A DNA stretch of 64,000 nt, from the NCBI RefSeq assembly GCF_009914755.1, contig NC_060930.1, one strand, 5' to 3'. The translations under genes and the position numbers were made by a program. Below the pieces are notes generated by a model. The model did no database searches. It was not told the DNA's origin and saw nothing but the letters and a program-made list of their open reading frames with translations. The DNA comes from the human T2T-CHM13v2.0 reference genome, Homo sapiens. This document shows, one piece after another, positions 42,150 to 46,400 of this stretch. Numbering within the stretch: the first letter of the stretch is position 1; every line of letters begins with the position of its first letter.

Positions 42150-42754
42150 TTCCGCGCGGCGTGGCGTGGCGTGGCGTGGCGTGGCGCCCTCAGGGCCGTT
42201 ACGCGATTTTCGCTCCCGCGGGCAGCGCCTCTCAGGCCACTCCCGAGGGACCCCGAGGACGCACTCGGGCCCCAGGGCGACGGTTCAAACGGGCCATTGT
42301 GCGCCCCCGGGGTCCCCCGGCCCCTGCAGGGCTACTTGGGCGCAGAGCCGCGGAGGGTCTCCGTTCCTAGAGGTCCTCCTATCCCGGGCTGCCTGAGTCC
42401 TCGCCAGCATCCGCCCTCTCCCACTCCCATCCTTCCTGGATCCGCCTCTCGGTTCCCGAGGGACAGTCCCGACCGCAAACCCACGTAGAGTAAGGAATGT
42501 GGGACAGGCGACAGAAGTGGCATACGGTCCTGCGTTATCCCTCCGTCTCGCCACACCTTGTGTCTCCATCTCTCCCCACTTCCTTCCCTCCGTCTGTCAT
42601 CTGTCATCCCCGGTCGCTCTAAGACCAGGATTCCAATTCGCCTAGTGAGGAATCTCACTAGGGGAATTTATCGCGACATCATAAATTAACGGGTTCATTT
42701 TGACTGAAAAAGCGAAGGACTTTTTTCAGGCAGAAAACAAGTCTCGTCTGGACG
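42150..42754 (+). other. TBPL1: Alternative upstream first exon 1A of the same gene; TSS approximate
   Basis: Strong donor ACG|GTAAGG at 42754/42755 in the 5' half of the CpG island; upstream CCAAT box at 41979-41983. Confidence 0.55.
42158..42186. repeat. (GGCGT)n pentamer repeat in promoter
   Basis: Five full units plus GGCG. Confidence 0.95.
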
Positions 42755-43129: not shown

Positions 43130-43449
43130 ATGAGTGGCTAGCGAGGCACCCAGGAGCGCCCTGTCCGGCGGCGCTCTAGCCCTCGCGCACTGTCTCTATG
43201 CTCCCCAGCGTCTAGTCTATTTATTGTCGCGGGGAAGCTGCGGCCGCCTCGCACCCGGAACAACAAAGCAAGGAAGACGGAGTCCGAGCCTCGGGGGCTC
43301 CTAGCAACGGGCCGGGGCGGGAGTTCCATGGAGACTGGGGAGCGCGCCCGTCTCATCCTCATCCTTGTCCTCCAGCTTCTCCTTCGCATCCGACGCAACC
43401 GGCAGCAGCGCTGCCGCCGCGTCCTCAGCCACCGCTCCCTCTTCCCACG
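43130..43449 (+). other. TBPL1: First exon 1B (5' UTR with uORF) of TBPL1; TSS approximate
   Basis: GC-rich exon after GC boxes and an ETS motif; 5' splice site ACG|GTAACC at 43449/43450. Sequence recalled as the TBPL1 mRNA leader. A long first intron and gene-poor upstream region fit that locus. Confidence 0.75.
43328..43449 (+). CDS. Upstream ORF (microprotein) in the TBPL1 5' leader: METGERARLILILVLQLLLRIRRNRQQRCRRVLSHRSLFP + CG, continuing across the splice donor
   Basis: ATG at 43328 (ttccATGg), 40 sense codons plus 2 nt to donor cacg|gtaacc. Unspliced, it reads CGG TAA (41 aa). Peptide recalled as the TBPL1 uORF. Confidence 0.75.
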
Positions 43450-46400
43450 GTAACCCCCTAGGCGACCCTGGGCACAGGGAGCGCGGGCGGCTGAGCGGCC
43501 TGAGCACCGGGTGCGGGGCGTCTGGGCGCGGGGTGGGCATGTGCGGAGCCCGGGCCAGACTTGGGGTGGGATGTGTGGGGGCGGGCGACTGGAGGGCAGC
43601 CGCTGAGGTGGGGGAAACCGGTCCGGTGGCCGAGGGAGGGCTCAGTTCTGAAGAGGACCGGGCGATATTTGGGGATCTCTTTAGGGATAACGGGTTGGGG
43701 GTGGGGCGTCCGTACCTGGGAGCGTTACCGAGCCTGGTGTAGGATAAGAAAAGAAGGGTTATCTTTCGTTTAAGCCACCACTGGGAAAGACGGGGAAAAG
43801 AGATTCCTCATCTGTCTCGGAGCCATCACCCAGGGGAAGAGGGACCGTGCAAAGATGCTAGGGGTCCGTTGCTTCTCAGAAAACTTACAGCGGCTTCTCT
43901 AATAGCTCCCAAAAAGCGGCTTCGTCGGTTTCTGATTCTGGCAATGCCGGCAGCCTCGCTTTATTTTATTATTATTTTTGACCAAAATTAGGATTGATGG
44001 AGAAGGATCTAGAACTGAAGAAGAGAAAATGAATTGTGGGTAGGGCTAAGCAGGGATGAGAGTCGGGATAAGTGATAAAAATAGCCAATAAAAGCCCTAA
44101 AAGTAAATCTAATAGGGCATGAGGGCTTAAAAAGAAAATCTCTCCTGCCGAGATGTGCATCTGCAGGCTCTGTCAATGTGCTCATTGCAATAAGACTCAA
44201 ACTGCAGTCAATCCACATCTGTGAGCTCTCTGACTGCATCTGTCACCTGCAGTTCCAAAGCGACACTGGCAGTAAGTGCATGAGCTTCTGTATTTAGGGT
44301 TTAGAACAGTGCCTTAAAACTGTGACTTAAGAAAAGGGAGCAGGTTTGCGTGTGTGTGTGTAAGCAATGTGGATTCTCTGGGAAAATATAAAAAGAGACA
44401 TAAGAAGGTTCAGCCATCCTGGCATAATTTCGCAGTCTCTTTGAGAAAATGGCAGTTCCTTCCTATTGAGAAGTGACTGTTAGCACTATCTGGTTGAAAG
44501 GATTATTCACAGTTTGGTATGCCCAGTGAAATATCAGTTTATGTTACCTCTTTAGTCTTACATCACAAGCTGCTTAATGGTTTTATACTTTACAAAATCA
44601 TTTTGGGTGAGTAAATGAGGTTTTCCTGTAGCACAATGAAAAGGCCACATATACATACAAAGTTCTTTATGTAAAGTTGAAGATTAAAGATGAAAATAAA
44701 ATTGATAAATCATAGGAGCAATTAGGTCAACCACAGCTTCTGTTTGTTCCCCACCCCTTTTGTTAAACCTGACTTCTCCTAAGCAAAAAGGTGTCATCCT
44801 TTCCCCAGCCTCCTCTTTACGTACCCTCTGCCCTCAAAATCAGTATCAGAAACTCTAGTGACCTATTACTATGTGCCCTTGATTGGGCTGGCTTGTTCCT
44901 GAATGAGGGCTAGCCAGAATATAGCTTCAACTCAGGCGTTTTCATCTTAAGCTTTTAATATGGAATTGAGGTCCAGTGTCTGTTAAAGGAATTTCATTCA
45001 TGTGTAAAGAAGTGGACAGGATGCAAAGTGTGAACATTGGGAAACTTAAGTTGCATTTTAAGACATTAAGAAGAAAAAGATAGATTAATGAATCAAAGAC
45101 TGTTGCTTAATCTTTGTAGCAGTTCTGTGAAGGATATACTGGGATAGCCATACTTGAGGCTGTGGATGTTGAGTCCTGGGGTTATCTTTGTGCATATGAG
45201 ACTTGACGAAGTGTCCCTCAACCTCAGGGCTGCCATCAGACTCACTTGACCCAGATCTAGTTTGCCGTTGTCTGTCTCTTCATTGTTTGAGTGAGGGTCA
45301 AGCCCTAGCTTCCACCTTTATTAACAATGCAGTGTCTGCTTTCCCTGCTCTCCTCCGCCCCAATACTCCCAACTTTGGTGGTAGTTTAGTTACTGTCTTT
45401 TCTTAATCATGTCCCAATCAAAAATGATTTTTTATGCTGTATCATTTCCGTTTCTTACAGCATTTTCAACATGTGTCCTTCGCCTGCATGTGCATTTCAT
45501 TAATGTGATTTTATCTGTTGCATTTTCCTTCTGTACCCTCCTCTTTATTTGGAAAATTGGAGTGGTCATGTTAGATGTTCTGTATTCATTCTGAGTAACT
45601 GTTGGTTGTGAATACAACAGGTTAAGAGCCTCTGCTGAAACTCAAGAGCTTCTATTAAAATAAGGTATATTAAAATTTTTGAACTTAGCAGAATGAAAGA
45701 CGTTAGAAGTCCAAATGGTAATACTGTAATTGTAGACGGTCACTTTTTAAAAAAGTATTGTAGAGCCTGTTCTGTGTTTTAAATTGAACCTTAGATTTTC
45801 ATGATTCTTATTCTAAAAAAATTATTCTTAAAATCAATCTTGACTGAAATTATATTCTGCCAAATTTGAGGGAACTACTTATAGTAATTTCCCCAAGTTA
45901 TTCTTAACATAGAAAATTGTCACATCAGCATTTGTGTGGATGAACACATATAAAATGCAGAATTTGCTATGAAGTAGAACAAATATTTATGAAACATATA
46001 GCTGAATGTTTTTGGAGAGAGTTATTTCTTCTCATGGACATGGCACACTATTTAAAAAAATCAGAAAATACTGTATAATCTAGTTGAGTGAACATGAGGA
46101 CTGTTTTTAGATGAAGGATACCAGTAATAACCTAGGTGATTGATTTCCTTCTGTTTCATCATAGACCATGTGATGAAATTATTGCTATAAAATATGAACG
46201 TTGCAGTTGATTTTTAGAAGAATTTATAGTAGAATGTTTCCACATTGTCTCTGAGTTAAAATCTCTGGTGTTTTCAAATTTTAGCTGTATTGTGACATTC
46301 GAACTAATAAAGATTCCCTGAAACTTAAATCCATTTTGTTGTGCCTTCTGTATGTCTGGTGCCGTGTCAGGTGTGCAAAGCTGGATGAGAGAGGTATTTC

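What the first reader, a model, noticed from the sequence alone, without database searches (positions are those of the whole stretch)
43328..43452. Hidden microprotein ORF in the TBPL1 5' leader (bicistronic-like mRNA)
Seen: an ATG-led frame below the ORF track cut-off, METGERAR-LILILVLQLLL-RIRRNRQQRCRRVLSHRSLFP(R). It has an 11-residue aliphatic core followed by an Arg-rich tail, which resembles a signal anchor or membrane-targeting peptide rather than random GC-rich leader translation. The context (T at -3, G at +4) is intermediate, so leaky scanning to the main CDS is possible. The donor GT sits so that the unspliced RNA reads CGG TAA, giving nearly the same 41-aa product. Recalled, not verifiable here: exon 2 adds G-ATG-TGA (42 aa, ...FPRM*), and a TBPL1 uORF has appeared in ribosome-profiling and CRISPR surveys, so translation may be known while its mechanism is not. 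Inference: one mRNA makes both the TBP paralogue and an independent membrane-associated peptide, and also tunes TBPL1 dose.
Basis: partly seen in the sequence, partly recalled or inferred. Interest (0 to 1): 0.85.

Follow-up and report, generated by a model that had tools for sequence, protein, structure and literature searches.

The report
Known TBPL1 upstream-ORF microprotein
The small reading frame in the TBPL1 leader is real, conserved in placental mammals and translated, but it is already an annotated human gene and a published microprotein, so it is not a new discovery.

Summary
ATG 43328 is the only ATG of TBPL1 exon 1. It opens 40 codons plus 2 bases up to the exon end at 43449. The unspliced RNA stops at CGG-TAA. 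In the window's own assembly, exon 2 begins G-ATG-TGA, and the spliced product equals the 42-aa database protein P0001.

It is not hidden. RefSeq annotates it as protein-coding LOC128092253 (hub table). It is the published "TBPL1 uORF": 42 aa, an HLA ligand, localised apart from TBPL1 and reported as functionally independent (both citing Chen 2020, which I could not read). The mouse orthologue is Ribo-seq-translated, has PhyloCSF 122 and is SignalP-positive, with weak evidence of secretion.

The open frame alone is not beyond chance: 4287 of 5000 shuffles stay open. Conservation is the real evidence. All nine orthologous segments keep the frame and 8 of 9 keep the ATG in frame, while the leader just upstream changes frame between human and rodents.

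The hydrophobic core has only 11 residues, too few for a membrane span.

New details found here:
- A 37-nt spacer separates the uORF stop from the TBPL1 ATG.
- The uORF ends in AUG-UGA.
- Gene models in four species fuse the uORF to TBPL1 through an internal acceptor.

Novelty: already known.

The parts
43218..43225 (+). TATA-like element (TATTTATT) about 30 nt upstream of the annotated start of exon 1
   Evidence: Read. The stretch around it is kept in the upstream in-frame translations of P0004, P0005 and P0008. Function inferred, not tested.
43248..43327 (+). 80-nt 5' leader of TBPL1 exon 1 (NM_004865.4), without any ATG
   Evidence: Hub annotation gives the exon start. One search shows the only ATG of the exon is at 43328. 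One search shows this leader changes reading frame between human and rodents, which serves as the control for the ORF.
43328..43330 (+). uORF start codon, first AUG of the mRNA, context AGTTCCATGG (T at -3, G at +4)
   Evidence: The published 'TBPL1 uORF' start-codon base-edit target maps uniquely to 43312-43337.
43328..43449 (+). First coding block of the uORF / LOC128092253: 122 nt, 40 codons plus 2 bases. The parts that complete it lie OUTSIDE the window, so they are listed here by window coordinate. (a) 70093-70099 is the start of exon 2, G ATG TGA, which completes Arg41 and adds Met42 and the stop. (b) 70137-70139 is the TBPL1 main ATG, 37 nt after the stop, in the context ACCCCAATGG. (c) 70199 is the first base after an internal acceptor-like ...tgtgtttttag| inside exon 2, and joining exon 1 there keeps the uORF frame open into TBPL1 from codon 22.
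   Evidence: and the hub annotation (coding 43328-43449, CDS end 70099). The mouse orthologue has the same 122 + 7 nt block structure. The outside parts were read in the window's own assembly as L007:1397-1403, 1441 and 1503. The spliced product equals P0001. The junction at 70199 appears in gene models of Rattus, Thomomys and Rangifer; its use in human is not shown.
43352..43384 (+). CT-rich tract encoding the aliphatic core, residues 9-19
   Evidence: Across nine orthologous segments, changes here stay within L/I/V/F except Q16R in Rhynchocyon.
43385..43449 (+). Arg-rich tail, residues 20-41 (net charge +9), with two R-X-R-R motifs at residues 20-23 and 28-31
   Evidence: Both motifs are kept in all 9 segments.
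43450..43453 (+). GT splice donor. In unspliced RNA, G completes CGG and TAA (43451-43453) stops the frame, giving 41 aa

Best explanation
This is the known TBPL1 upstream ORF (RefSeq LOC128092253, NM_001414965.1). It is a single-copy, placental-conserved, two-exon frame of 42 codons that starts at the first AUG of the main TBPL1 mRNA.

How it most likely works:
1. Scanning ribosomes reach AUG 43328 after an 80-nt AUG-free leader. The context has no purine at -3 but has G at +4, so some ribosomes initiate and the rest scan on. The sequence is shown; the split of ribosomes is inferred.
2. Initiating ribosomes make a 42-aa peptide and stop 7 nt into exon 2. That is 37 nt before the TBPL1 AUG and about 170 nt before the next exon junction (shown in sequence). 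This spacer is short for re-initiation after 42 codons. TBPL1 is therefore probably made mostly by ribosomes that skipped the uORF AUG, and uORF use lowers TBPL1 output and may expose the mRNA to nonsense-mediated decay (inferred from established scanning and NMD rules).
3. The peptide itself is under selection. It is one long helix with an aliphatic N-half and a very basic C-half (pI 12). According to published work, which I saw only second-hand, it acts in trans and apart from TBPL1.

My commitment on its cell biology: it is a soluble or peripherally bound basic helix whose aliphatic face buries in a partner or at a membrane surface. It is not a membrane-spanning anchor and probably not a cleaved secretory signal.

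Odds:
- Identity and translation: about 0.97.
- Selection on the peptide: about 0.8.
- A trans function: about 0.55.
- The cytosolic or peripheral reading against the secretory one: about 2 to 1.
For: Anatomy:
- Exon 1 features.
- Exon 2, the stop, the 37-nt spacer and the main AUG context.
- Single copy in the assembly: 1 match at E<=1.
- Annotation: the hub table gives the CDS 43328-43449 joined to 70099.

Published identity:
- A review table lists TBPL1 uORF, 42 aa, hg38 chr6:133953303-133980088, as an HLA ligand with localisation distinct from the main protein (passage only).
- A 2026 preprint states that Chen 2020 co-IP data pointed to independent functions for the TBPL1 and ARL5A uORF peptides (passage only).
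- The start-codon base-edit target for 'TBPL1 uORF' maps uniquely to 43312-43337.

Mouse (ORFLine paper, passages and Table S3):
- Ribo-seq-called uORF of 42 aa with blocks of 122 + 7 nt.
- PhyloCSF 122.07.
- Translation efficiency 6.92 against 1.31 for the CDS in one setting, and 3.01 against 1.16 in the other.
- For scale, a 2026 Nature paper says only 74 of 2,915 human uORFs score PhyloCSF >10 (passage; a different pipeline).

Conservation tested here:
- Searches of 5.8 billion proteins and 1.84 billion representatives returned only orthologues.
- Nine segments come from human, Phodopus, Rhynchocyon (Afrotheria), a mouse-like record, Rattus, Thomomys, Cervus, Rangifer and one unnamed record. 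They are 29-35 of 41 identical to human.
- 26 of 41 columns are invariant.
- 9 of 9 segments are open to the end.
- 8 of 9 have the ATG in frame.
- Internal control: the roughly 80-nt leader upstream switches between all three human frames in both rodent records, so it holds at least two frame-changing indels. The 122-nt ORF holds none.

Peptide properties:
- AlphaFold2 on the single sequence gives one helix, residues 3-36, mean pLDDT 78.7.
- The core is 11 residues, and the best 19-residue window sums to +8.2 kcal/mol.
Against: - The open frame is not beyond chance: 4287 of 5000 shuffles stay open.
- The orthologue set is biased. Only species in which a predictor called this frame are in the databases, so 8 of 9 says nothing about how often the frame is broken elsewhere.
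- One record (P0005, unnamed source) has two compensating 1-nt changes in G-runs that put the ATG out of frame with the conserved body. This may be a read error or a real loss.
- No nucleotide alignments were available, so dN/dS was not computed here. The PhyloCSF value is taken from a supplement.
- The primary paper (Chen 2020) is not held, so what is said about HLA detection, localisation and independence is second-hand.
- 'TBPL1' gave 0 hits in the five held supplement files of Sandmann 2023. Those files may name ORFs by other ids.
- The TBPL1 uORF base-edit outcome is not reported in the preprint's main text.
- Against my non-secretory reading: SignalP called the mouse peptide positive, and a FLAG-tagged form 'showed evidence of secretion' in HEK293T.
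Confidence: 0.72

Rival explanations
1. Conserved-peptide uORF that acts only in cis. The amino-acid sequence is conserved because the nascent chain slows or stalls its own ribosome, for instance while the Arg-rich stretch sits in the exit tunnel or at the terminal AUG-UGA. That stalled ribosome blocks scanning ribosomes and so sets TBPL1 translation. The released peptide has no function of its own.
For: - There is amino-acid-level conservation with no recognisable domain.
- Mouse ribosome density on the uORF is 2.6- to 5.3-fold that on the CDS, which stalling would also produce.
- The spacer to the TBPL1 AUG is only 37 nt.
- Known precedents exist, such as the polyamine-sensing uORF peptide listed in the review table.
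Against: - Secondary sources report a detected peptide (HLA ligand), a defined localisation and an independent function.
- The FLAG-tagged mouse peptide accumulates in cells.
- Conservation covers the N-terminal 10 residues as well as the C-terminal part. Arrest peptides usually constrain mainly the last 10-20 residues (recalled).
Confidence: 0.2
2. Secretory pre-peptide, which is the reader's membrane-targeting idea in the form already published for mouse. The aliphatic run serves as a signal sequence for post-translational entry into the ER. The basic remainder is then released or processed at the two conserved R-X-R-R sites.
For: - The mouse orthologue is SignalP-positive, and a FLAG-tagged form was seen in culture supernatant.
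- An 11-residue hydrophobic run fits the h-region length of signal peptides.
- Both R-X-R-R motifs are kept in 9 of 9 segments.
Against: - By the sequence, the flank after the core is net +9 against 0 before it. The charge-difference rule (recalled) then keeps the C-side in the cytosol.
- No small residues follow the core to make a -3/-1 cleavage site.
- The Met-Glu start is a typical N-acetylation substrate, which disfavours ER targeting (recalled).
- Rhynchocyon has Arg in the middle of the core.
- Expression and secretion were described as weak, and the protein was tagged and over-expressed.
Confidence: 0.2
3. By-product of nucleotide-level constraint. The exon is conserved as promoter-proximal or 5'UTR DNA/RNA, the frame is open because the sequence is GC- and CT-rich, and its translation is incidental.
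For: - Openness is expected by chance.
- Antisense ORFs of 83 and 79 aa overlap the frame.
- The hydrophobic core is simply a CT-rich tract.
- The exon RNA shows no unusual folding (z = 0.17), so this rival would have to act through DNA or primary sequence.
Against: - The adjacent leader is also conserved in pieces but changes frame between human and rodents, while the ORF never does.
- Start, splice phase, Met42 and stop are kept in human, mouse, Phodopus (with one extra Gly) and Rhynchocyon.
- Substitutions in the core are conservative.
- PhyloCSF is 122.
Confidence: 0.05

Closest known systems
Functional uORF-encoded microproteins on 'bicistronic' human mRNAs (the Chen et al. 2020 set: MIEF1, HAUS6, ARL5A and TBPL1 itself)
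   Same: It is one of them by name. A review table and a 2026 preprint list the TBPL1 uORF peptide (42 aa) from that study. It starts at the first AUG of the mRNA, does not overlap the main CDS, and the peptide has been detected.
   Different: The MIEF1 and HAUS6 peptides bind or co-localise with the main protein. The TBPL1 peptide is reported to localise differently and act independently. Its actual function and partners were not available to me.
Mouse Tbpl1 uORF micropeptide (ORFLine, Hu et al. 2021)
   Same: It is the orthologue: 42 aa, the same 122 + 7 nt two-block structure, and 32 of 41 residues identical with no indel (P0004 and P0009 carry the same 41 residues).
   Different: It was proposed there as a signal-sequence-bearing secreted micropeptide. 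My sequence reading of the human peptide does not meet the cleavage-site and charge criteria.
Conserved-peptide uORFs that act in cis through the nascent chain (for example the polyamine-responsive uORF peptide listed)
   Same: Amino-acid-level conservation of a uORF, and a position close upstream of the main AUG.
   Different: Those uORFs are usually shorter, and no free peptide function is claimed for them. Here a peptide product is reported.
Start-stop (AUG-stop) leader elements
   Same: The uORF ends in AUG-UGA at the first bases of exon 2. Ribosomes that skipped the first AUG meet this as the next AUG; its UGA stop ends 37 nt before the TBPL1 AUG.
   Different: It is in frame with, and part of, a longer ORF. 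Its context is weak (C at -3, T at +4, read). No evidence was found that it is used as a start.

Membership tests
Translated, non-overlapping upstream ORF of a protein-coding mRNA | The AUG lies in the mature 5' leader, upstream of and on the same transcript as the main CDS | tested here: met
   Exon 1 is 43248-43449 (hub table). The only ATG is at 43328. The main ATG is in exon 2 at window coordinate 70137.
Translated, non-overlapping upstream ORF of a protein-coding mRNA | The stop codon lies before the main start codon | tested here: met
   TGA ends at 70099 and the main ATG starts at 70137, leaving a 37-nt spacer.
Translated, non-overlapping upstream ORF of a protein-coding mRNA | Ribosome footprints in frame, or peptide detection | not testable with these tools
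   Literature only: mouse Ribo-seq call and human HLA ligand as summarised in a review. The primary human paper is not held.
Protein-coding microprotein gene (selection on the peptide) | Frame, start and stop preserved across distant species, with conservative substitutions | tested here: met
   9 of 9 segments are open, 8 of 9 have the ATG in frame, and 26 of 41 columns are invariant. The leader control changes frame. PhyloCSF 122 comes from the supplement. The sample is biased towards intact frames, and dN/dS was not computed.
Single-pass membrane anchor / signal anchor | Hydrophobic segment long enough to span a bilayer (about 17-20 residues or more) | tested here: not met
   The core is 11 residues. 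The best 15-residue window sums to +1.7 kcal/mol and the best 19-residue window to +8.2 kcal/mol on the Hessa scale.
Cleavable ER signal peptide | h-region of 7-15 hydrophobic residues | tested here: met
   Residues 9-19 have mean Kyte-Doolittle hydropathy 3.3.
Cleavable ER signal peptide | n-region more positive than the flank after the core, and small residues at -3/-1 of a cleavage site | tested here: not met
   Net charge is 0 for residues 1-8 against +9 for residues 20-41. Residues 20-28 hold no Ala, Gly, Ser or Thr.
Any curated protein family (Pfam) or solved structure | Significant profile or sequence match | tested here: not met
   Pfam returned 0 families at E<=10. PDB returned only two designed helical-repeat proteins, a compositional match with 0 stretches passing. 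The ESM Atlas gave no usable hit.

The most novel reading that the evidence does not exclude
Dual use of the same AUG and 41 codons. With the normal acceptor they end in a stand-alone 42-aa microprotein. With an acceptor-like site inside exon 2 (...tgtgtttttag|, window coordinate 70199) exon 1 joins in frame to TBPL1 codon 22. That gives a 206-aa TBPL1 form whose own first 21 residues are replaced by the aliphatic and Arg-rich peptide.

This junction is written into gene models of Rattus, Thomomys and Rangifer. A related junction further downstream appears in Cervus. The human sequence has the site, and the frame is open.

If real, part of the peptide's conservation would reflect an alternative TBPL1 N-terminus, and splice choice would switch one start codon between two products.
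Probability: 0.1. Interest if true: 0.5.

Novelty: already known. Interest (0 to 1): 0.15.

Why it matters
The finding adds nothing new. The frame is a curated RefSeq gene and was characterised in a 2020 Science paper and in later screens.

It remains a good example of a rare class: a uORF with amino-acid-level constraint across placental mammals, sitting 37 nt in front of a basal transcription factor's start codon. What the peptide does, and how much it sets TBPL1 dose, is still open as far as I could read.

The fused gene models in other species raise a small, cheaply testable question: can the uORF AUG also start a TBPL1 isoform?

Tried and rejected
- The search of earlier findings was not open.
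- Chen 2020 could not be fetched by DOI or by PMC id.
- 'LOC128092253' occurs in 0 papers of the library.
- 'TBPL1' gave 0 hits in the five held supplement files of Sandmann 2023.
- A UPR review and the circTBPL1 paper (the circle is exons 2-6) say nothing about the uORF.
- The STRIPE-seq paper says only that K562 cells prefer a start region giving a 'short form' of the 5'UTR. I could not see the figure, so it neither supports nor refutes a start site upstream of 43328.
- Searches for a paper on a uORF-TBPL1 fused isoform found nothing relevant. 'TBPL1' + 'exon 2' + 'isoform' gave 4 papers, none on this. 'TBPL1' + 'ribosome profiling' gave 8 papers.
- Folding exon 1 as RNA gave z = 0.17, with 109 of 200 shuffles folding at least as well, so there is no special structure near the AUG.
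- Pfam, PDB and the ESM Atlas gave nothing usable.
- I considered a transmembrane-helix reading and rejected it on length.
- I considered a complex prediction with TBPL1 or of peptide copies and did not run it, because I make no binding claim.
Full report
**1. The observation**

- ATG 43328 sits in AGTTCCATGG, with T at -3 and G at +4. It is the only ATG in TBPL1 exon 1 (43248-43449), after an 80-nt leader.
- The frame runs 40 codons plus CG to the exon end.
- The donor GT follows at 43450. Unspliced RNA reads CGG TAA and gives a 41-aa product.
- Residues 9-19 are aliphatic with one Gln. Residues 20-41 carry net charge +9. The peptide has 11 Arg in 41 residues and pI 12.0.

**2. The part outside the window**

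The window's own assembly is held, so I located TBPL1's exons with a related protein and read exon 2.
- The acceptor reads ...ttctcag|GATGTGA, so exon 2 starts at window coordinate 70093 with G ATG TGA.
- A script that joined the two pieces from the files gave a 42-aa product identical to database protein P0001.
- The next ATG is the TBPL1 start at 70137, 37 nt after the stop. Its context is ACCCCAATGG (C at -3, G at +4), and it lies in another frame.
- The peptide is single-copy in the genome: 1 match at E<=1.

**3. Is it more than chance?**

The open frame alone is not.
- The frame stays open in 4287 of 5000 dinucleotide shuffles of the body.
- 796 of 5000 shuffled exons hold an ATG followed by 40 or more open codons.
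- All three frames of the exon are nearly open.
- Antisense ORFs of 83 and 79 aa overlap it.
- The alternative first exon carries its own unannotated 41-aa ATG ORF.
- The aliphatic core is the translation of a CT-rich tract. Its hydropathy is the top of 188 window ORFs, but only narrowly.

**4. What it is**

The hub annotation lists exactly this CDS as protein-coding LOC128092253 (NM_001414965.1).

The literature names it the TBPL1 uORF.
- A review table gives 42 aa and hg38 chr6:133953303-133980088. It describes an 'HLA uLigand' with localisation distinct from the main protein, citing Chen et al. 2020 (passage).
- A 2026 preprint says Chen's co-IP data pointed to independent functions for the TBPL1 and ARL5A uORF peptides (passage).
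- A medulloblastoma preprint designed a base edit of the 'TBPL1 uORF' start codon. Its target context maps uniquely to 43312-43337. The main text reports base-edit results only for CPNE1 and FAXC.
- I could not read Chen 2020 itself.

**5. The mouse orthologue**

The ORFLine paper (passages; Table S3) reports the following.
- It lists a Ribo-seq-called Tbpl1 uORF of 42 aa with blocks of 122 + 7 nt.
- PhyloCSF is 122.07.
- Translation efficiency is 6.92 against 1.31 for the CDS in one setting, and 3.01 against 1.16 in the other.
- The peptide was SignalP-positive. [quoted passage not shown]
- For scale, a 2026 Nature paper states that 74 of 2,915 catalogued human uORFs have PhyloCSF >10 (passage; a different pipeline).

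**6. Conservation tested here**

Three searches found orthologous sequences.
- A word-indexed search of 5.8 billion proteins found 3 proteins among 3 candidates: the human one, Phodopus roborovskii (43 aa) and the afrotherian Rhynchocyon petersi (42 aa).
- A profile search of 1.84 billion representatives found 3 proteins at E<=0.001: the human one and two longer genomic ORFs, P0004 and P0005.
- A search among longer proteins found 6 of 14 candidates.

Across the nine segments:
- Identity to human is 29-35 of 41.
- 26 of 41 columns are invariant.
- All nine segments are open to the end, and eight have the ATG in frame.
- Changes in the core stay within L/I/V/F, except Q16R in Rhynchocyon.
- Both R-X-R-R motifs are kept in all nine.

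As an internal control, I aligned the upstream parts of P0004, P0005 and P0008 to the three human frames. In both rodent records the roughly 80-nt leader switches between all three human frames, so it holds at least two frame-changing indels. The 122-nt ORF holds none.

Caveats:
- The sample holds only species in which a predictor called this frame.
- P0005 (unnamed source) has two compensating single-base changes in G-runs that put the ATG out of frame.
- I had no nucleotide alignments.

**7. How it most likely works**

- The first AUG in a weak context captures part of the scanning ribosomes.
- The 42-codon length and the 37-nt spacer make re-initiation at the TBPL1 AUG unlikely. TBPL1 probably depends on leaky scanning, and the uORF acts as a gate. 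This is inferred from established scanning rules, and the mouse efficiency ratios fit it.
- Termination lies about 170 nt before the exon 2/3 junction. That would allow nonsense-mediated decay (inferred).

The peptide is predicted as one helix, residues 3-36, with mean pLDDT 78.7 from a single sequence.

It is not a membrane span. The core is 11 residues, and the best 19-residue window sums to +8.2 kcal/mol.

Several features argue against a cleavable signal:
- The Arg-rich flank follows the core rather than preceding it.
- No small residues follow the core.
- The Met-Glu start is a typical acetylation substrate. This point and the charge rule are recalled knowledge.
- Rhynchocyon has an Arg inside the core.

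The published SignalP call and the weak secretion of the tagged mouse peptide argue the other way. I therefore keep the secretory reading as a rival at 0.2. I put a purely cis-acting conserved-peptide uORF at 0.2 as well.

**8. Seen on the way**

Four gene models fuse the peptide to the TBP domain (PF00352):
- Rattus norvegicus 'isoform X2';
- Thomomys bottae;
- Rangifer tarandus, a cluster with 35 members;
- Cervus hanglu, with a junction further downstream.

In human, an acceptor-like ...tgtgtttttag| lies inside exon 2 at 70199. Joining exon 1 there keeps the frame open, and the next 24 residues match the Rangifer model. That junction would replace TBPL1's first 21 codons. By the known TBP fold (recalled), those codons hold the first beta-strand, so the product may not fold.

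I found no paper on such an isoform. Human RefSeq lists none (hub table). These may be prediction artefacts.

The uORF's last two codons form AUG-UGA, which is the next AUG that leaky-scanning ribosomes would meet.

**9. Verdict**

- The feature is already known and annotated.
- Interest is low. What remains open is the peptide's function, the size of its effect on TBPL1 dose, and whether the fused junction is ever used.

Noticed in passing
Outside the window: L007:1503 (window coordinate 70199); proteins P0006-P0009: Gene models in Rattus, Thomomys and Rangifer join the uORF peptide in frame to TBPL1 from codon 22. Cervus has a junction further downstream. The human sequence has an acceptor-like ...tgtgtttttag| at the matching place, and the frame is open. 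No paper on such an isoform was found.
   Followed up: partly
Outside the window: L007:1398-1403 (window coordinate 70094-70099): The last sense codon and the stop of the uORF form AUG-UGA, a 'start-stop'-like pair 37 nt before the TBPL1 AUG. Met42 is kept in human, mouse, Phodopus and Rhynchocyon.
   Followed up: no
window 43218-43225: A TATA-like TATTTATT lies about 30 nt upstream of the annotated exon 1 start of a gene that encodes a TBP paralogue. The surrounding stretch is kept in the upstream translations of P0004, P0005 and P0008.
   Followed up: no
window 42497-42622: The alternative TBPL1 first exon (42198-42754) holds its own ATG ORF of exactly 41 aa. It has no hydrophobic run and no annotation, so it is a handy same-length negative control.
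   Followed up: no
window 42160-42184: Five tandem copies of CGTGG lie just upstream of the start of the alternative first exon at 42198.
   Followed up: no
protein P0005 (unnamed source), residues 130-145: Two compensating single-base changes in G-runs on either side of the ATG put the start codon out of frame with the otherwise conserved peptide body. This is either a read error or a lineage that has lost this start.
   Followed up: partly
L001 (own assembly, contig 3, 175307299-175307517): An intron-less stretch is 88% identical to the last 73 residues of the TBPL1 model, with no stop. It is probably a processed copy of TBPL1.
   Followed up: no
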